A stretch of DNA of 64,000 nucleotides. Source: the human T2T-CHM13v2.0 reference genome, Homo sapiens. The notes under the pieces are model-generated. The model searched no databases, was not told the origin of the DNA, and was given only the letters and a program-made list of their open reading frames with translations. Of the stretch, positions 1 to 20,214 are shown piece by piece (the stretch's first letter is position 1; each line of letters starts with the position of its first letter). The position numbers were made by a program, and so were the translations under genes. The DNA lies in the NCBI RefSeq assembly GCF_009914755.1, contig NC_060931.1. The stretch is one strand, 5' to 3'.

Positions 1-348
1 TCTTCTGGAATCTCCTGAAGAACCTGCCTGAGGATCTTCTTGCGGGGGTGTCACTCTTTTCAGAAATCTGTTCATGGTGGTTTCCTTGGGTTTGTTTCTG
101 TTTTTCATCATAGATTTGCTTGTAAGCAGATCTATGAACATTCCTCTCTAGTAATGAAAACCTTTCATTGTTGGGGTTCATGTTTTCAAACTTGTTAAGC
201 AGCTTGTTGAAGTCTGCAAAAACTTCTGCTAAACCCTTCACTGTACATTTTCTTGAGAGAATTATTCAGCTGCATTATAATCTTTTGGAACCACTGTTGT
301 ATATGTAGTCTTTGGTCGACTGAAATAATGTTATGTGGTACATGACTG
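1..348 (-). mobile_element. Tigger3 (Golem/MER7) DNA transposon, internally deleted, cut by the window edge
   Basis: The minus strand starts TA|CAGTCATGTACCACATAAC...AAGATTATAATGCAGCTGAA, then jumps to Tigger3 internal sequence (GTGAAGGGTTTAGCAGAAG...GAAAAGAGTGACACC). Confidence 0.8.
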
Positions 349-1689
349 TATCCAAATTGATGAGGTAATTCTAGTAGCTTATAAAATATCTTACATAACA
401 AGATCCATGTCATTTCCCCCTGAATCAAGGACAAAGAAGAAAAAAGGTTTGTTATTTTAAGTATAACATATAATATTCAAATGTGAATTATGTTTGATTG
501 TAGGTCAATAATTTTTGAGCCCCAGTTTCTTATGAGAATGGAATTGGTAGTGTGCCAGTTAAGGAAAATTTATGGTGACACTAGATAAACATGGCAGTAA
601 GTAGAAGCAGTTCATTTTGTATAAGTTAAATCGTTACATTTATAAATATAAAGAATAGCCATTTAACTATTTTTTATAGGTTTTTAAATTATAGTTTTTA
701 CATCTTACGTTTTAGTTGAATGTTTTACTGAAATATATTTCATGTCATAGTATAGATAAAAAAGAATTTAAGAAACCATGTCATCTAAGGATGACTTTGT
801 CTTCTCCAGGTTTCTGTCCTCAAGCGAAAAAATCTTGCCTGTTTTTAACTCTAGAAAAGTGGTTATAATTATTTGATTTTTCAGCATGCAAACTAGTAAC
901 TATTTACACATGATAGATATACTTTTTTTTTAGGTTTTTATTTTTTATTAAAACTATTAATGCACATATGGATGAAAGACTAGAGGTGCTCCCCAACTCT
1001 ATTTCTGTTTCTTCCTCCCAGGAGGCTACTACATCGAACATTTTTAGCTGACTGTTTTGGTATCATGTCAGTAAATGGTGTGCTTATGTTGCTAATTCTT
1101 ATTTTTTTGGTTTTAACCATTATGGAGGATGAGGATTTAGCTCTTTACATTTTCCTTCACCACGTATGCATATCATATACTCTTCCAATCCCTCAGTTCT
1201 TTCACCCTAATTATATTAGTAATTTTGATTAGATTAGTATTTGTTAGCAGATCCACTAGTAAATTGTAGTTGCTATTCTCTATTCCTGTATTTTCATTTT
1301 CTCAGACTTCATTTATTTGCTTCATTTTTTTGTATATGCCACTTGGCTATAATTCAACCCCGAAATCTGTGCTTGTTTTCAAAATCAACTTTCAGTGCAT
1401 TCATTCTGATTTGTCAACTTCATTTTCTTGAAGATGTCACTCCTGGAGCCTTCTAAGCTGAATACGGACTCATTTTCTGAAGCTGGTGTACACGTGTCAC
1501 CGATCTTCTTAGAAATTATCTTTGCCTTTTTCCTGAGTTGGGCCTTCTAGATCCTGTATTCTCTGTCTCCCTCTTTATGTTTTGCTTGTTTCATGCTTTG
1601 AGAGCAGCATGTCTTTTTTTTTGTTTTTGTTTTTAATCTTTCTGAGGAAAAGTGTTTGTGGTAGGTTAATTTTGTGAAACCTTATGAGC

Positions 1690-2730
1690 AAGTCTGAAAA
1701 TTATTTTTAACTATCCTCACACTTGATTGATGGTTTGGCAGGGTAAAGAATTCCTGGGGGAAATGTTTTTAAAGGCATCATTGCATCATCTTCTACCTTT
1801 AGATGTCATCATTGAGCCATTCAGAATCATTCCTGATTCTTGACACGTGATTTTTTTCTTTTTTCTCAGTATTCTGATATTTCACAACAAAATATCTTAA
1901 TATGAGTCCATTTTCATCTGTTTTGCTGGGTGCTCAGTGTACTCCAGCAACTTACATCTTTCATTTCTGGAAAATGTTAAATATTTCATTATTGTTTTTC
2001 TCCCCTCCATTTTGTCTCTCCTTTCTTTCCAAAACCCATCTGGTTTAGATGCCCTCTAATCAGGTTCTCTAATTTTCTTCTGTTTTTCTACTCCTGTGCT
2101 TTTCTACTTTTTGTGGTATTTCCTCACATTTACCTTCCATGATTTCCATTGAATTTTTTCTTTCTGCTTTTGTATTTTTATTTTCTAAGAGCTCTTTTGT
2201 TTCCTCTGTAACTATCTTATTCTAGTTTCATGAGTATGATATTCTTCTTTTTCTTTGATAATTTTTATAACTGTTTCTTTTTTCAACCTGAGTAGTTTTT
2301 ACCTATTTGTTTATTTTAATCTCTTTCATTTACTAGGCTTTTCTCAGCTATCCAGTATCCCAAGATTCTTAGCTCATTAAGAGTGGGGGACTAAAAACCT
2401 GATGCTCTGATTTCATGTTGAATGTCACTGTAGCTAGTTTGTAGCTGGGTTATTTGGGGGTAATACCTGATCTTCATGTCTGTGTCTTTCTTGTTGACTG
2501 GTCATATTCTGTAGACTATGAAGAAGACTTCACATCTGCCTGGAAAGTAAAGACCAAGCTGAAGGCTTCAGATAGTCAGGAGGGAGAATCAGGTGGAGGG
2601 GTTTGTATCAGCATTTAATAATCCTGTCTTCTATATTATTTCATTGTCTTTGGTCGAGAGGTACCTCTTATCTTACTCTCTCCAGAAAATAAGCCCCTAG
2701 TTTTCAGTTCTGTGTAGTGGAGGAAGGTGG
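1690..2730 (-). mobile_element. Ancient L1M (L1ME-like) ORF1/5' fragment
   Basis: T-rich degenerate antisense L1 ORF1-like sequence. Boundaries approximate. Confidence 0.5.
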
Positions 2731-2731
2731 G

Positions 2732-3081
2732 TGATATGGTTTGGCTTTCTGTCCCCACCCAAATCTCATCTTGAATTGTAATCCCATAATTCCCACATGT
2801 CATGGGAGGGACCTGGTGGGAGGTAATTGAATCATGAGGGTGGTTTCCTGTTCTCTTGATAGTAAATGAGTTCTCACAAGATCTGATGGTTATATAAGCA
2901 TCTGGTATTTTCCCTGCTGCCACTCATTCTCTTTCCTGCTGCCCTGTGAAGAGGTGCCTTCCACCATGATTGTAAGTTTCCTGAGGCTGGGGAGCCATGT
3001 GGAACTGTGAGTCAATTAAACCTCTTTTCTTCATAAATTACCCAGTCTTGGGTCATACCAGCATGGGAACAGACTAATACA
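2732..3081 (+). mobile_element. THE1 (C/D-like) solo LTR, MaLR
   Basis: Starts TGATATGGTTTGGCT...CCCACCCAAATCTCATCTTGAATTGTA, has ATTAAACCTCTTTTC, ends GACTAATACA. Confidence 0.9.
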
Positions 3082-3228
3082 GTAAGAAGGCATCCCTCTG
3101 TAAACCAGGAAGTGAGCCAGCACCTTGATCTTGGACTTCCCAGCCTTCAGACCTGTGAGAAATAAATTTCTGTCATTTAAGCTACCCAGGCTATATTTTT
3201 GTCATAGCAGCCTGAATTAACTGAGACA
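3082..3228 (+). mobile_element. MLT1A-like LTR, 3' half
   Basis: GCACCTTGATCTTGGACTTCCCAGCC...GTGAGAAATAAATTTCTG...GAGACA terminus. Confidence 0.8.
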
Positions 3229-4214
3229 GTGAGCTTAGGACTAGCTGAGAAAACCAGCAGCTTTGCTGCCCAAAAGTTGTGGAGTGACTTGATTCAGGCT
3301 AGGGAAGAAAGAGAAGACACACAAACTAAACCTGTGACTTTGCTGGTGAAAAGTGGTGGATTTGGTTGGAAACAAATAGAGAAAACCTGCTGCTGTGCTA
3401 ATTTGACATTGTGGACCAGCAGAAATTTAATAGGGAAATCCTAGAAATGAGAGAGCCATGGAAGGGTTAAGATGAGCTCTCCACATAGAGACCCAGGAGA
3501 GCCTGGAAAAAAGTGAAAGCTGATGGGGACTTGACAACTGGCTGCAACTTTGAATGCATTTCCCAGTCCATCACAGCTCAACTCACTGAGAGTGAAGTCT
3601 TAAAAGCTTGAGGTTTTTGAACACAGCCGTTGCTGATTTGTCCACAACATTGGCTCAAATGGCTGTTGGAGCACAATATTGGTCCATCATTAAGCTTTAC
3701 AGACATAGGTACAACCCCAAGAGAGTCAGACTAAAATGTAAAAATAAGAATTAAAATATTAAACGGATGTCCTGACAGCATACCTTGGAGGGAAACAGAT
3801 TCTGCAGTTTAAGTCTAGACCAATTATTTAAAAACTCAAACTCTGAAAAAAAAATAATAAATCTAGAGTTACTGTTAAGGGTTCCATATTCAACCCCAAA
3901 CTGCTAGACATGGCAAAGAAAAGAAATACCAGGAAAATGTGAGTCATCATCAGGAAAAATAGTCAATAAAACGGACTCTGACTGGGCTCAGTGTTGGATT
4001 TAATGAAGACTTCAAATTGGCTATTTAGAATATATTGAAAGAATTAAAGGAAAATACAGTCTGGGCATTGTGACATGTGCCTGTAGTCCCAGCTACACAG
4101 GAGGCTGAGGTGGGAGGATTACTTGAGCCCGGTAGTTCAAGACTATGATCACACCTGTGAATACCCACATCAGTCTAGCCTGGGCAGTAAAGACCCTGTT
4201 TCTTTCAAGAAAAG

Positions 4215-4245
<31 letters not shown>

Positions 4246-4600
4246 ATATGTGAACAAGATGCTAACAGGACACAATAAATAGAGAACCTCAGTAAAGAAG
4301 CAAACTCAAAAAGAACCAAGTAGAGATTTTAGATTTGAAAAGCACAGTATTTGAAATGAAAATTTCATTGGATAGGCTCAACAGATTTAAGATGGCAGAG
4401 AAAATGTGAAGATCAATAAAAAGTATTCCAACAAGAGAAAGAAAAGAGATTTGTAAGAATAGGGAACAAAGCCTTGGAGACATGTGGGACAATGTCAAAC
4501 ATTCCAACACACATGTAATGGGAGTTTCAGACAGAAAGGAAAGAGAGAGACAGAAAAAAATATTTGAAGTAATAGTGGCCCCAAACCATCTCAAAGTTTT
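3229..4600 (+). mobile_element. Old L1M 5'UTR/ORF1 fragment, interrupted by an Alu monomer
   Basis: ORF1-like A-rich sequence (GGATAGGCTCAACAGATT...AATGGGAGTTTCAGA...GAAAAAAATATTTGAAG). Confidence 0.7.
4059..4240 (+). mobile_element. Free Alu monomer (FAM-like) with A tail
   Basis: CCTGTAGTCCCAGCTAC...ATGATCACACCTGTGAATA...AGCCTGGGC followed by poly(A). Confidence 0.75.
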
Positions 4601-4658
4601 ACTAAATTCTGGTAGAAAATAAAACTTAAAAAGAATTTCAGTAAGATGAAATAAGCAC

Positions 4659-4864
4659 ACTATACCCTAACTTGGCAGAGACAGTGAGCTCTGGTCCTTT
4701 CAGCTTCTGATAAGGGCATTCCTGCCAAGATGGGGGCTCCACCCTCATGACCTAGTCTAACCCTAATCACCTCCCCAAAGACTCCACCTCCAAATACCAT
4801 CCCACTGGGAATTAGGGTTTTAGCATATGAATCTGGGAGGGACACAAACGCCTAGGCCATAGCA
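4659..4864 (-). mobile_element. MLT1A-like LTR, 5' half (opposite strand to its 3' half)
   Basis: The minus strand begins TGCTATGG...TGTCCCTCCCAGATTCATATGCTAAAACCCTAA...GGTATTTGGAGGTGG...GGTCATGAGGGTGGAGCCC. Confidence 0.8.
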
Positions 4865-5573
4865 CTGATCAAGCTTCGGTTATCACCAACTGAGCTGGGG
4901 CCCTGGGGAGGTACATGGGGACAGCCCCAGGCAAGAAGGCCACAGAGTCACACTGTTCTTACCTCAAGCTCTAGCAGTTTTGCCAGAATAAATGTGCCTC
5001 ATTTTTATAACGGCCTTTGGGCAATTTTCAGCACCCTTAAAAGACTGCCTTTGATGATGCTGTCCAGTTTTATATTTGCTTTTTTGCAGAGGGGAACTGC
5101 CAATCTCTTCATGCCAATATTATCAGAAATTGAGTAATGTTTGTAATAAAAGATTTTCAACATTTTACTATTACTAAACTTTCATAGTCACAACTTTGTT
5201 ATCAAGTGAAAGAAATCATTGTGATATGGGCAATATTGTTTCTAATGATGAAATTCATTAGGATGTTCACTGCAGCATTTCTTGAAGACATGGGAAAAAT
5301 AGAAACAACTGCCATGTTCCTCAGACGCTAAATAAACTACACTCATCCTATGAATCTGCAACAACTAAAAGAATAACATGGTTTCATATGTACTAATGTG
5401 AAATGTTCTCCAAAATACATTTTTCTGTGGGAAAATAAGTTTCATATATCACTGATATAGTAAGATATTACTTATATAAATACAGTAACACATTATGTTT
5501 TAGATATTTATATAAGTATAGAAATGAAGCATATATCTTCATATTTTCTACAGATACAAATATGTAAATATGT

Positions 5574-5642
5574 AAGAATAGGTCTATAAAGACATAAAGA
5601 ATAGGTCTATAAAGACATAAAGAATAGGTCTATAAACACATA
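5574..5642. repeat. Tandem repeat, 3 x 23 bp (AAGAATAGGTCTATAAAGACATA)
   Basis: Copies at 5574, 5597 and 5620, with one substitution in the third. Confidence 0.95.
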
Positions 5643-6596
5643 AAAACAAAGTATAACATGCATTACCCCTAGGGAAAGAGCAGAGATGGAAAGCTGGCCA
5701 AGTTAAAAAGGCTCTTGTCTCTATCCAGTAATACCTGAAATTTTTTACAAAATTAATTTATGTATACCTGTGTAATAAAACAATAATTTAACAAATGGAT
5801 TGCCCAAGCTATCAGCTATGTATATGGAAAGTCAACATCATGAGGATTCCTAGAAGTTTCTATACAAATTCACAGAGATTAAAGAAAACCATTTGATGAA
5901 ATAAAATTAAGCACCCTTATATAAAAGATTTTATTAGGTGAAACATGCTTGGCATCATTTCTCAAGTCATGGATTTGTCAACCCAAAGATGATCTCCTTA
6001 TATAGAACATTTCATCTTTTAAAATCCCATGACTTATATGTTAGTTTGTGCTTTTTATCATGGATTTCTTTCCTAGTAGTAAGCCATTTCAGTATGTGTC
6101 ACATTCAATAATATCTTTTAATAACTTTAACAGGTGCATTTCAAGTTACAAGATTTCTTTATGCCTACAGTTAAGAATTACTATGAATGAAACTTATTAA
6201 CAATTACTCTTAATTCTTTAAATCGTCATCTTATGAATCAAGTATTTTCTGCTAGAAATACTTTACCCTAATTACAACCTTCATAGATTGTAAAAAGGAA
6301 ACAGACTCCAAGACACTGTGGCAATAAATGGAAATAATTTGTCTTCCACAGTTCTTTTAAGAAGAAAATGATTTTATAGGTGATAGGAGAGGGCCTTGAG
6401 ATACTATGTCAAAGTGAATTTAAGTACTATCTTTATATTTTGAGCTCTGGCTTTTCATATTCTAGCATTTGTTGTTGAGATTAGTTTTTCACTGACACTT
6501 TGAAAAATTAGTCAGAAAGAGATGGTTGATGAGTTGCAGAATATAGATAAAATAGAATAGCATTTATGTTTTTAGTAAAGTAGGCATTTAATTAGG

Positions 6597-6738
6597 TTTT
6601 TTTTTGTTTCATTTTGTTTTTTTGAGATGGGGTCTTGCTATGTTGCCCAGACTGGTTTTGAATTTGGGCTTAAGCAATCCTCCTGCCTCAGCCTCCCAAA
6701 GTTCTAGGATTATAGGAATGAGCCACTGCTCCTGGCCT
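6597..6738 (-). mobile_element. Alu left monomer (FLAM-like)
   Basis: Poly-T, then GAGATGGGGTCTTGCTATGTTGCCCAG...CCTCAGCCTCCCAAAG...CCTGGCC. Confidence 0.85.
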
Positions 6739-6754
6739 ATTTACTTTTATTATA

Positions 6755-7093
6755 CAGGTTGAGTATCCCTAATCTGAAATGCTTGGAACCAGAAGTGTTT
6801 CAGATTTGGGATTTTTCTGGATTTTGGAATATTTGCAAATACATAATAAGTTGTCTGGGGAGAGGACCCAAGTCTAAACATAAAATTCATTTATGCTTCA
6901 TGTACACTTTGTGTACATAGCATGAAAGTACTTTTATATAGTGCTTTTAATTTTGTGCATGAAACAAAGTTTTGACTATGACCTGTCACATGAGGTCAGG
7001 TGTGGAATTTTCCACTTGTGGTGTCCTGTTGGTGCGCAAGAAATTTTGGAGTTGGGAGCATTTCAGATTTTTGGATTAGAGATGTTCAACCTG
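6755..7093. mobile_element. Tigger4-family MITE (MER46/Zombi)
   Basis: TIRs CAGGTTGAGTATCCCTAATC ... GATTAGAGATGTTCAACCTG, flanked by TA on both sides. Confidence 0.85.
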
Positions 7094-7457
7094 TATAACC
7101 TTATGAGTTGTATCAATGTCATTTATATTTTTCAGGTAAGAAGATAGATGTGTGGTTAGATTTTTTAAAAATACTACATTGGGGAAAATGAGATTATAAT
7201 TCAGAATTTAGTTTTTACTCTATTTAATCACTCCTTTTGCCACACATGTCCTCAGCATTTATACTGGAGTGTTTTATGAAGCAATTCATTATTATTATTC
7301 TAACATATAATGAAATGAAGCCCTCTTAATGAAAATGTCATTGCTACAACCTGTTTAAAGGACAGTATGACAGTATCTGACAATTGAAAAATCATGTATC
7401 CTTTGATCTAGGAATTCTACTTTTAGCTCTTAGTGTTTACTTGCTAATGTATGTGTA

Positions 7458-7690
7458 TCTCTCTCTCTCTCTCTCTGAACACACACATGATATATATGTG
7501 TATATATATGTGTATATATGTGTGTGTATATATACACGTGTATATATGTATGTGTATATATACATATATGTGTGTATATATACATATATGTGTGTGTATA
7601 TATACATATATATGTGTGTATATATACATATATGTATGTATATGTATGCGTATGTATACACACACATATACATATGTGTGTGTATGTGTA
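7458..7690. repeat. Compound microsatellite: (CT)n, then about 200 bp of TA/TG/CA purine-pyrimidine alternation
   Basis: Directly visible. It generates the six overlapping spurious ORFs at 7384-7835. Confidence 0.95.
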
Positions 7691-8614
7691 TTTGTTTTTG
7701 GATGCTGATTGCCACACTAATTACAACTGCAGAAATGGAAGCAGCCTGTATGTCTTTCAGTAGAGGACAGACGAGATAAATTTTGATGCATGCATACAAT
7801 GAAGTACTAGGTATCTCTAAAAGAATGAGCTTCAATATGGAAAAATCACTAAGATTTTATTAAACAATTGCATTCATGTAAATAAAAATTGATGTATTCA
7901 ATTTTGTCTGAAAGTTTTGTGTAAATTTGTCTAAAAGGCTAGAAAGAGACTTCTTTAGGGGAGAAGATCAGTTTTTGTTTTTTGATTTTTAAATATTTCA
8001 ATGTAATTAGACTACATCTTTTACCACATACATGTGTGTTTATATACACATACATACACATATTTATATACATATGTGTGAACCTGTAATGGATTTTTTT
8101 AAATGTTATATGTAAAGGTTTTTTTACTCACTGTTCATCACAACTTTGGAGTCTACTCCATTATCTCCTGTTGTTCAGTACTATCAGTAATAAATGTCAT
8201 GCAGGTTTGATTATTGTTCCTTTTACATTAACATTTTTCTTTCTGGAAATCCCCATTTTTTTATGTTTTAAACATTCTGAGGTTTCACTTAGTGTTTCTA
8301 GATTTGGGCCATTTTCATTCCATCTGCTCTGCACATGGTAGACCCCTTCATTCTAAAGTTTTCTGTGTCATTTAAACTCAAATACATTTTCTTCTATTAC
8401 TTCTTCAACTATTTCCTCTCACACTTATTCTATTCTTGTCTTATGAAACTCTTAATAGGTAGTGTTGGATTTGCTTCTGGGTTCTAACTTTACTCATATT
8501 TGTCATCTTTGTTCTGCATTTGGAAGATTAACTTGACTTGATTTTCTGGATTAGCAGTTTCAACTTTATTCTGTCATTTAGTCTGCTGTTACATTTTAAT
8601 TTTAATTTTAATTT

Positions 8615-8905
8615 TTGTTTTTATTTTAGAAACAGTGTCTTGCTGTTACCTAGTAGCACAGTCACAGCTCACTATAACCTTGAACTCTTTGGCTCAAGTG
8701 ATTCTGCTGTCTCAGCCTCCCAAGTATCTGGGACTACAGGCACATTGCCACCATGCCCAGCTAACTAATTTATTTATATTTTCTTTTTGTAGAGATGAGG
8801 TCTTTCTCTATTGCCCAGGCTGGTCTCAAATTCCTGGCCTTAAGCCATCCTCCCACCTCAGCCTCCTGAAATGCTGGCATTACAGGTGTGAGGCAGCATG
8901 GCCAA
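8615..8905 (-). mobile_element. Old Alu (AluJ-like)
   Basis: Diverged dimeric Alu: CACAGCTCACT...CTCAGCCTCCCAAGTA...TTTTGTAGAGATGAGGTCT...TTACAGGTGTGAG. Confidence 0.85.
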
Positions 8906-10144
8906 CCTTAGATTTAAATTTGACAATAATGTTTTTAAGTGCCAGGAACTTTCTTATTTTTTGGTTGCTCCTTTGCTTCCTTTTAGTGACTTGTTCTTTT
9001 ATGAACACAGTAGCTTCTCACATATCTCTCAGAATGCTAACAAAAATAAAATGTTAAAATTCTCTTCTATTCTCAGCACCATCTGTTTTTCCCCCAGTTT
9101 AGTTTGCTTAGTTTACCCGCTGTCACTGATGTTTTCTTCAAATGCCTGGTGATATAATTGCTGAGTTTTATTTATAAATGAAGGACTAGGGTGATGATTC
9201 AGGATTATATCTGATGAGGATTTCCTCTGTATTTGTGTAGGCTGCTCCTCCCCTCCTCCCACCAGCCTTCTACCTGGAATGGGACGTCATGGTCAGGCAC
9301 TGAGTAAGTGGTGGGTTTGTCCTCAGGCAGACTGCTGCTTCAGATTTATAGGCAGAGAGCAGGTGGGAGCCCTTAAAATAACTAAATTAAGAAGGAAGAG
9401 TACTCTGGATATGGGACATATTAGGGTAAGGCTTTGAGTGGAAGAACAGAAGGGAAGAAAATGGCACCACCCCTAGAGTTACTGGGAAATGTATTAAGGG
9501 GAACTTTTGGTTGTTATAACACCTGTGGAAGACAACAGCCGTTTGATGAAAAAAGGAATTTTTTTCTCCCTAAGTGCCAGTGGTTTCCTGTTTGAAAAAC
9601 CCTGCTTTAGTGCATTCACTCCTAGGCAATCTCCCTTCCTCCATCCCTCCTCCTCTAGTGTCCTTTGCAAAGAACGAGATCTACCTCAGCCTCTACTCTC
9701 TTTTTTTTCAGGCTCCCACATCCCCATTCAGAGCCCTCCCCAAAGAGAACAAACCCCCACTGTCTTTGGAAAGAAGTTTGTGGTATTTAGTCAGGCCAAA
9801 ATGTGGGCTCTTCTATATGCGATTCCTTAATGGCCTGGAATGACTGCCCCTCCACTGTGCCTGCACTTTGTTGTTGTTGTTGACTCCAAGCTTGAATTTT
9901 CTCTAGGAATGGTTTAGGAAATTCAGCTCTACATTTGTTTTAAGGCTTTAAATACTGATCATAAATTCAGTGTTTTTAAGATGAATTCAGTTTAGTTTTT
10001 TCCACTAGGATACTTCCAGTGGTGTGTCCCCGTGTGTCTCATGTTCTTAACACCCCACCAAACCCATCAAATAAAGAGTTAACTGCTTTCCCTTATTTCC
10101 ACAATACTAATAATGCAGTAGGAAGTATTGTTCTAGGAGTTTTC

Positions 10145-20045: not shown

Positions 20046-20214
20046 GACTAAATCATTTTGCTACTTTAAAAAAATCACGAAAGTACATTATTTGAAGTTT
20101 GGAGAAGAAAGGGATTTGGTAACAAAGGACAGCCATTTCCATTTTAAGCAGCTAAACAGCAGGAGAGATTTCTGTAAGAAGGTACCAGCTCAGATTCCAT
20201 TGTTCATCATTTTG
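20046..20214 (+). other. PALS2: Probable non-coding 5'UTR exon of PALS2/MPP6 (169 nt)
   Basis: Acceptor ttttaatattttatAG|GAC (AG 20044-20045) and donor TTG|GTGAGA (GT 20215-20216). Non-repetitive, contains no ATG, and lies 3.4 kb upstream of the ATG exon. Confidence 0.65.

What the first reader, a model, noticed from the sequence alone, without database searches (positions are those of the whole stretch)
3082..4660. About 1.6-kb inversion revealed by an LTR whose two halves point in opposite directions
Seen: the 3' half of an MLT1A-like LTR is on + (3082-3228) and the 5' half is on - (4659-4864). The halves are consensus-contiguous (...CTGCCAAGTTAGGGTATAGT | AAGAAGGCATCCCTCTGTAAACCAGGAAG...). 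The L1 between them is on +, while L1-like flanks on both sides read on -. The breakpoints share microhomology TACAGT (3078-3083) / TATAGT (minus strand of 4659-4664). Re-inverting rejoins the LTR and puts GTGTG after the THE1 LTR, a 4/5 match to the GTGGG preceding it (currently GTAAG, 3/5). Inference: a microhomology-mediated inversion that postdates the primate THE1 insertion.
Basis: partly seen in the sequence, partly recalled or inferred. Interest (0 to 1): 0.7.

Follow-up and report, generated by a model that had tools for sequence, protein, structure and literature searches.

The report
Small inversion splitting an old LTR
About 1.6 kb inside an intron of PALS2 has been flipped end to end, cutting an ancient retroviral LTR remnant into two halves that now point in opposite directions; it is an ordinary, probably neutral rearrangement, of use mainly as an evolutionary marker.

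Summary
An old MaLR-type (MLT1-like) solo LTR lies in two pieces: 3' piece on + (3082-3228) and 5' piece on - (4661-4864). In 30 of 40 natural copies both pieces sit on one strand in 5'-to-3' order, and in none on opposite strands. Piece-by-piece alignment to 14 of those copies gives a gap of 0-1 nt in 8. There is an independent test. The old L1 that hosts the LTR is flipped at the same point. Its upstream part (4865-5117, -) and its inner part (3229-4660, +) are colinear on one strand in all 8 of 27 fetched relatives that carry both. So a balanced inversion of about 1.58 kb is real.

- The left flank is not shown to be L1.
- The order relative to the THE1-type LTR (2732-3081) rests only on 5-mers: 4/5 when re-paired against 3/5 as it stands, calibrated on 20 copies. 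My estimate is about 12:1 for "inversion after THE1".
- The microhomology is only 2 exact nt (5 of 6).

No outgroup genome was on hand. This is an ordinary intronic rearrangement of low interest.

The parts
2331..2731 (.). Left flank P. It is unique sequence that ends in the 5-mer GTGGG (2727-2731).
   Evidence: the only genomic match is itself; no similarity to the inner L1. Letters.
2732..3081 (+). Younger solo LTR of the THE1 type (simian-specific MaLR group). It is 350 nt, with TG...ACA termini. Subfamily not assigned.
   Evidence: termini; 6687 first-look candidates, and the 39 scored non-self hits are 82-87% identical, mostly full length; 20 relatives share the termini, and 15 of the 20 have a 5-nt duplication matching at 4/5 or better. 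The name THE1 is recalled, not given by a tool.
3082..3228 (+). 3' piece (147 nt) of the older MaLR-type (MLT1-like) solo LTR. It lies inside the flipped block.
3229..4660 (+). Inner piece of an old L1: 5' region and first part of an ORF1-like stretch. It carries one nested SINE-like insertion and lies inside the flipped block. The last 5 nt, CACAC (4656-4660), are the candidate second copy of the younger LTR's target duplication. The ORF1-like stretch is decayed: no + frame is open for more than 71 codons.
   Evidence: relatives. (LINE-1 ORF1p, E 0.029). (longest open stretch).
4661..4864 (-). 5' piece (204 nt) of the same older solo LTR. It lies outside the flipped block.
4865..5117 (-). Upstream part of the same old L1. 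In relatives it is contiguous with 3229 onward. ATCAG (reverse complement of 4865-4869) and GTGAG (3229-3233) are the candidate 5-nt duplication around the older LTR.
   Evidence: 20 non-self matches covering 4889-5117; colinear in 8 of 27 loci; overlap of 3-5 nt in the two best-aligned relatives.
3082..4660 (.). The flipped block under the favoured model (1579 nt). Each breakpoint can slide by 2 nt (GT at 3082-3083, AC at 4659-4660).
   Evidence: Inference.

Best explanation
This is a balanced inversion of about 1.58 kb (3082-4660) inside an intron of PALS2. I infer this history:
1. An old L1 lay on the minus strand.
2. An MLT1-like MaLR provirus inserted into its 5' region and was later reduced to a solo LTR (351 nt, minus strand).
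3. Much later a THE1-type MaLR inserted on the plus strand where the unique stretch P met the truncated end of that L1, and also became a solo LTR.
4. The block between the end of the THE1-type LTR and the middle of the older LTR was then turned around.

The inversion lost or gained no bases at the older LTR. It had no long repeats at the breakpoints, only 2 nt (5 of 6) of inverted microhomology. That points to non-homologous joining of two breaks, or a replication template switch, rather than recombination between repeats.

Shown: the flip itself, its seamless junction in the older LTR, and the lack of repeats at the breakpoints. Inferred: the order relative to the THE1-type LTR, and the joining mechanism. 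No function is expected.
For: Both LTR pieces are parts of one element.
- same strand and order in 30 of 40 natural copies, opposite strands in 0 of 40.
- gap of 0-1 nt in 8 of 14 copies aligned piece by piece.
- equal divergence of both pieces on the same 11 loci.

The host L1 is an independent witness.
- the right flank read on - and the inner piece read on + are colinear on one strand in 8 of 27 loci, with none opposite.
- the two best-aligned relatives (L045, L047) show an overlap of 5 and 3 nt. This fits a 5-nt duplication around the older LTR.

Breakpoints.
- none of the 25 inverted repeats listed, of 35 found, has its arms at the two breakpoints.

Order of events.
- in 20 natural THE1-type copies the 5-nt duplication matches 5/5 in 9, 4/5 in 6, 3/5 in 3 and 2/5 in 2.
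- the window copy shows 3/5 as it stands (GTGGG against GTAAG) and 4/5 when paired with the reverse complement of 4656-4660 (GTGTG).
- By my hand calculation, 0.30 x 0.088 against 0.15 x 0.0146 gives about 12:1 over each rival order.

Ages.
- the K2P branch of the window copy is 0.156 for the older LTR's 5' piece and 0.066 for the younger LTR.
- passages of PMC10735291 say the THE1 family is found only in simians, and most MLT1 members across placental mammals.
Against: - No outgroup or second human haplotype could be compared, so the ancestral orientation is inferred and not seen.
- One breakpoint coincides with the terminus of the younger LTR to within 0-2 nt. This model leaves that coincidence unexplained.
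- The 5-mer argument is one comparison of G/T-rich words, so my 12:1 is rough.
- The abstract of PMC1794541 (listing) reports an antisense bias of intronic LTRs. This slightly favours the rival in which the THE1-type LTR first lay on the minus strand.
- The host L1 stops in mid ORF1 at the left breakpoint. Its continuation was not found in window 1-2731 or in chr7 24726001-24736000, so an older or accompanying deletion is needed.
- The 3' piece gave a lower branch length than the 5' piece (0.079 against 0.156). I put this down to picking the 29 best of 2028 candidates on the conserved end, but did not test that.
Confidence: 0.7

Rival explanations
1. Order C. The THE1-type element inserted inside the older LTR, on the minus strand like it. 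The flipped block is then 2732-4655 and carries the THE1-type LTR with it.
For: This order gives exactly the same letters before both events. The middle 5-mer GTGTG (reverse complement of 4656-4660) would then be the diverged partner of GTAAG (3/5). A 3/5 match is seen in 3 of 20 true duplications. An antisense first orientation fits the reported intronic bias (abstract of PMC1794541, listing).
Against: It needs the 4/5 match of GTGGG with GTGTG to be chance (15/1024). A breakpoint again falls exactly at an LTR terminus. By my estimate it is about 12 times less likely than the favoured order, and somewhat less unfavourable once the orientation bias is counted.
Confidence: 0.1
2. Order H. The inversion came first, and the THE1-type element later inserted exactly at the new left junction.
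For: The present flanks GTGGG/GTAAG match 3/5, as 3 of 20 true duplications do. GTAAG is also what natural copies of the older LTR carry at that place, for example in L005 and L076, so the target could lie in the older LTR.
Against: It needs an insertion within 5 nt of the junction, and it needs the 4/5 match with GTGTG to be chance.
Confidence: 0.1
3. Integration-coupled inversion. The two ends of the incoming THE1-type DNA joined two different nearby target sites, and the flip arose in that same event.
For: It is the only model in which a breakpoint at the exact LTR terminus is expected. Nothing else supports it.
Against: It predicts no regular 5-nt duplication, yet a 4/5 pair exists. I did not look for print on such events in MaLR elements.
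Confidence: 0.05
4. There was no inversion. Two unrelated truncated LTR fragments and two unrelated L1 fragments lie side by side by chance, or the assembly is wrong.
For: None beyond the general abundance of such fragments (1475 and 2028 first-look candidates).
Against: The fragments abut to the base in family coordinates. Their outer flanks also abut in the host L1's relatives. No near-identical second copy exists that could mislead an assembler: the only 100% matches are the window itself.
Confidence: 0.03

Closest known systems
Small (kilobase-scale and smaller) inversions found by comparing primate genomes
   Same: A short balanced flip in non-coding DNA with no long repeats at its ends, recognised because collinear sequence changes strand.
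   Different: Here it is inferred from one genome alone, through a split repeat nested in another repeat, and not from an alignment of two species. Papers seen only as search listings with the start of the abstract: PMC3227671 and PMC7954356.
Replication template switching and microhomology-mediated repair (FoSTeS/MMBIR; PMC2621351 and PMC9199198, seen only as listing and abstract start)
   Same: Very short microhomology at the junctions and no loss of bases.
   Different: This is a simple inversion with no duplication or added complexity. With only 2 exact nt, plain end joining fits as well.
Inversion by recombination between inverted repeats (NAHR)
   Same: Before the flip, the THE1-type LTR (+) and the older LTR (-) were distantly homologous inverted repeats (I22 and 3).
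   Different: The breakpoints are not at homologous positions: the terminus of one LTR and the middle of the other. Similarity is only about 50% by column. No repeat spans the breakpoints.
L1 5' inversion by twin priming (recalled from the literature, not looked up)
   Same: An L1 whose 5' part points the other way from an adjoining part.
   Different: The break lies inside an LTR that had inserted into the L1, and 147 nt of that LTR are flipped too. The flip therefore postdates the L1's own insertion.

Membership tests
ERVL-MaLR LTR, MLT1 group (older LTR) | LTR termini TG...CA | tested here: met
   the reverse complement of 4863-4864 is TG, and 3226-3228 is ACA.
ERVL-MaLR LTR, MLT1 group (older LTR) | Member of an abundant dispersed family whose copies cover both pieces in one orientation | tested here: met
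   (1475 and 2028 first-look candidates; hits 74-92% identical). (30 of 40 loci carry both pieces on one strand).
ERVL-MaLR LTR, MLT1 group (older LTR) | Homology to other MaLR LTRs along its length | tested here: inconclusive
   aligned with the neighbouring THE1-type LTR, the 5' piece falls at the start and the 3' piece at the end. Mean column identity is only 50%, and the ends of each piece are placed poorly.
ERVL-MaLR LTR, MLT1 group (older LTR) | 5-nt target duplication | tested here: inconclusive
   ATCAG against GTGAG is 3/5. Relatives of the host L1 show a 3-5 nt overlap of the two flanks.
ERVL-MaLR LTR, MLT1 group (older LTR) | Subfamily MLT1A by match to a curated consensus | not testable with these tools
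   No Dfam or RepeatMasker library was on hand. The name MLT1 is recalled. I built no consensus.
THE1-type simian MaLR solo LTR (younger LTR) | Full-length LTR with the family's termini and a 5-nt duplication | tested here: met
   (full-length hits at 82-87%). (the first and last 8 nt of the 20 relatives are the same or nearly the same; the duplication matches 4/5 or better in 15 of 20). The window copy's own flanks match 3/5 as they stand and 4/5 when re-paired.
THE1-type simian MaLR solo LTR (younger LTR) | Found in simians only | not testable with these tools
   From print only: passages of PMC10735291.
Simple balanced inversion | All collinear features change strand at the same two points, with nothing lost | tested here: met
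   The LTR and its host L1 flip together. The LTR junction has a gap of 0-1 nt in 8 of 14 copies. The left junction cannot be checked for loss, because P is unique.
Simple balanced inversion | Uninverted state present in an outgroup or another haplotype | not testable with these tools
Repeat-mediated (NAHR) inversion | Inverted repeats spanning both breakpoints | tested here: not met
   35 inverted pairs were found in 1500-6500. None of the 25 listed has its arms at 3082 and 4660.
L1 twin-priming inversion | Inversion junction inside L1 sequence, with only L1 sequence flipped | tested here: not met
   The junction lies inside the LTR.

The most novel reading that the evidence does not exclude
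The flip was made by the THE1-type element's own integration. Its two DNA ends joined two target sites about 1.6 kb apart on the same chromosome. This left one junction exactly at the LTR terminus and turned the host DNA between the sites around. If so, it would be a fossil of aberrant two-site retroviral integration in the primate germ line.
Probability: 0.06. Interest if true: 0.55.

Novelty: new member of a known kind. Interest (0 to 1): 0.2.

Why it matters
It matters little for function. The block lies in an intron of PALS2, about 15 kb upstream of the nearest annotated exon in the window (20046-20214), and contains only decayed repeats.

Its value is as a clean worked example. A small inversion can be proved from a single genome when a repeat nested in another repeat is split. 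If dated across primates, it would be a homoplasy-poor phylogenetic marker. The exact coincidence of one breakpoint with an LTR terminus is the only point that might repay a genome-wide count.

Tried and rejected
- Pfam on ten stop-free pieces of the two L1-like regions gave nothing relevant. There were two weak unrelated hits at E 0.14-0.15.
- PDB sequence searches on three left-flank pieces gave no L1 hit. I had read L1 ORF1-like motifs there by eye, but that reading is recalled and unconfirmed.
- I looked for the continuation of the inner L1 to the left. The 14 relatives' loci were compared with window 1-2731, window 4865-9000 and 10 kb upstream. The only hits were at about 6592-6739 and 8606-8911, which largely fall within masked repeats listed, and none to the left. 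The stretch chr7 24736001-24738000 was not examined, because one search returned 10,000 of the 12,000 bases asked for.
- The masked-repeat table marks only the younger LTR in this region and gives no family names.
- Twin priming and NAHR were considered and rejected (see Membership tests).
- A cruciform between the two MaLR LTRs was considered and dropped, because their similarity is only about 50% by column.
- Print. Searches (MPP6, inversion, intron; inversion, solo LTR, opposite orientation, breakpoint) found no paper on this locus. Supplementary tables of primate inversion surveys, which might list it, are closed and were not seen.
- Papers. From PMC10735291 I read the passages returned by a term search. 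All other papers were seen only as search listings with the start of the abstract.
- The neutral rate used for ages (about 2.2e-9 per site per year) is recalled.

Full report
WHAT IS THERE. One search shows the following layout in window coordinates.
- A unique stretch P ends at 2731 with GTGGG.
- A 350-nt LTR lies on the plus strand at 2732-3081 (TG...ACA).
- Directly after it, at 3082-3228, comes the 3' part of a second, older LTR on the plus strand, ending ACA.
- An L1-like stretch on the plus strand runs from 3229 to about 4660.
- The 5' part of the older LTR lies on the minus strand at 4661-4864. The reverse complement of 4863-4864 is TG.
- Further L1-like sequence, read on the minus strand, runs from 4865 to about 5117.

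The whole region lies in an intron of PALS2, whose nearest listed exon is at 20046-20214 (annotation supplied with the finding).

ARE THE TWO LTR PIECES ONE ELEMENT?
- The 5' piece has 1475 first-look candidates in the genome. The 39 scored non-self hits are 74-84% identical.
- The 3' piece has 2028 candidates. Its 40 scored non-self hits are 75-92% identical and lie mostly over its conserved last 110 nt.
- I fetched 40 loci with one piece or the other. Of these, 30 carry both pieces on the same strand in 5'-to-3' order, none carries them on opposite strands only, and 10 carry one piece only. The median extrapolated distance between the pieces is 19 nt.
- I then aligned each piece on its own, never joined, to 14 of those 30 copies. 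These were chosen for long hits or small gaps. The 5' piece ends and the 3' piece starts on adjacent bases in 7 copies. The pieces are 1 nt apart in 1 copy, 4 nt apart in 1, and 15-27 nt apart in 5.
- In three of those five (L004, L062, L079) I read the copy by eye as running straight through the same motif, the aligner having put the start elsewhere. L010 shows a local duplication.
- On one and the same set of copies (L002-L012) the two pieces are about equally diverged: 74.5-84.2% for the 5' piece and 70.8-82.4% for the 3' piece.

So the pieces add up to one 351-nt LTR with nothing missing or doubled at the break, give or take a base or two.

AN INDEPENDENT WITNESS: THE HOST L1.
- The start of the inner stretch (3229-3700) has 13 other matches. 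The right flank read on the minus strand has 20, covering 4889-5117.
- These searches gave 27 loci at 25 distinct places, because L030/L033 and L038/L041 overlap. Of the 27, 8 carry matches to both stretches (L030, L031, L036, L040, L045, L046, L047, L048).
- In all 8, the flank-like part lies upstream of the inner-like part on the same strand. None has them on opposite strands.
- Piece-by-piece alignment puts the end of the flank and the start of the inner stretch 5 and 3 nt into each other in the two best-aligned relatives (L045, L047). The values are +15 and -24 in two others. The remaining four alignments were poor.
- This is what a 5-nt target duplication around the older LTR would give. 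The candidate copies are ATCAG and GTGAG, which match 3/5.

The older LTR is therefore a solo LTR that inserted into an old L1. Today the L1 on one side of it and the L1 on the other side point in opposite directions, with the switch inside the LTR. That is an inversion. It cannot be the L1's own twin-priming inversion, because the LTR that came later is cut by it.

NAMING.
- The L1 label for the inner stretch rests on 38 non-self genomic relatives at 66-87% and on a weak best hit to LINE-1 ORF1p in the PDB (E 0.029, 33 residues). Pfam found nothing.
- The names MLT1 and THE1 are recalled from the look of the LTRs.
- Both are solo LTRs with no inner genes, so naming did not need any.

THE LEFT FLANK.
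I could not confirm this.
- 2331-2732 matches only itself in the genome.
- 1-2732 has no blastn similarity to the inner stretch.
- Three left-flank pieces gave no L1 hit in the PDB, and none of the seven left-flank pieces scanned gave one in Pfam.
- 1640-2330 is a low-copy old repeat with 12 other matches at 67-88%. I could not name its family.
- The continuation of the inner L1 was not found in window 1-2731 or in 10 kb further upstream.
- The host L1 therefore simply stops in mid ORF1 at the left breakpoint.

AGES.
- I built no consensus. I estimated the window copy's own branch from triplets of natural copies.
- The K2P branch is 0.156 for the older LTR's 5' piece (11 copies) and 0.079 for its 3' piece (29 copies). 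The second value is probably biased low, because those were the best 29 of 2028 on the conserved end.
- The K2P branch is 0.066 for the younger LTR (16 copies).
- At a recalled neutral rate of about 2.2e-9 per site per year, this gives about 70 My for the older LTR and about 30 My for the younger. Both are likely underestimates, since only best-matching copies were used.
- Passages of PMC10735291 state that the THE1 members, MSTA and MSTB occur only in simians (within the last 70 My), and that most MLT1 members are spread across placental mammals.

ORDER OF EVENTS. Three orders fit the same letters, because a single extra 5-mer sits between the parts.
- R: the younger LTR inserted between P and the L1 end, and 3082-4660 flipped afterwards.
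- C: the younger LTR inserted inside the older LTR, and 2732-4655 flipped.
- H: the flip came first, and the younger LTR inserted at the new junction.

I calibrated the family's duplication on 20 natural copies. It matches 5/5 in 9, 4/5 in 6, 3/5 in 3 and 2/5 in 2. In the window, GTGGG against the reverse complement of 4656-4660 (GTGTG) matches 4/5. GTGGG against GTAAG, and GTGTG against GTAAG, each match 3/5. Taking the other pairing as chance, R scores 0.30 x 0.088. C and H each score 0.15 x 0.0146. That is about 12:1 for R by my own arithmetic, and it is rough. The reported antisense bias of intronic LTRs (abstract start of PMC1794541) trims the advantage over C a little. I put R at about 0.7, C and H at about 0.1 each.

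MECHANISM.
- None of the 25 inverted repeats listed, of 35 found, has its arms at the two breakpoints. The two MaLR LTRs are only about 50% alike by column, and the breaks are not at homologous positions. Recombination between repeats is therefore out.
- The junctions share GT/AC (2 nt exact), or TACAGT against the reverse complement of ACTATA (5 of 6).
- Nothing is lost at the LTR junction.
- This fits end joining of two breaks or a replication template switch. I cannot tell which.

UNEXPLAINED.
- Under every order, one breakpoint falls within 0-2 nt of the terminus of the younger LTR.
- With hundreds of thousands of LTRs in the genome (recalled) and many small inversions, a few such coincidences are expected by chance.
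- The alternative is that the element's own integration made the flip. That reading is the boldest one not excluded. It is weakened by the 4/5 duplication pair.

VERDICT. This is a real, balanced, roughly 1.58-kb inversion in a PALS2 intron that splits an old MaLR solo LTR. It is probably younger than the simian THE1-type insertion next to it. It is ordinary in kind and unlikely to matter for function. Two searches found nothing in print on this locus. Supplementary tables of inversion surveys could not be seen.

Noticed in passing
window 5574-5655: A 23-nt unit is repeated head to tail about three and a half times. The repeat finder lists it as 3 overlapping 36-nt copies spaced 23 nt apart, at 100%, 100% and 83% identity (family D1).
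   Followed up: no
window 3223-3235 and 4678-4690: An exact 13-nt repeat on the same strand (D5). One copy spans the 3' end of the older LTR and the first bases of the L1, and the other lies inside the LTR's 5' piece. Before the flip the two copies would have been an inverted pair about 158 nt apart. Neither is at a breakpoint.
   Followed up: partly
inside window 3229-4660: A SINE-like (Alu-like by my reading, not tested) piece with an A-rich tail is nested in the inner L1 stretch. It says nothing about the inversion.
   Followed up: no
window 1640-2330: An old low-copy repeat with 12 other genomic matches at 67-88%. By eye some minus-strand frames recall L1 ORF1, but Pfam and PDB searches gave no such hit.
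   Followed up: partly
window 2331-2731: About 400 nt of sequence unique in the genome, wedged between two repeats. The host L1 ends abruptly against it or against the younger LTR, so an older deletion or rearrangement may lie here.
   Followed up: partly
window 195-434, minus strand: A 79-codon open frame in a stretch that looked to me like antisense coding sequence. It was not searched against anything.
   Followed up: no
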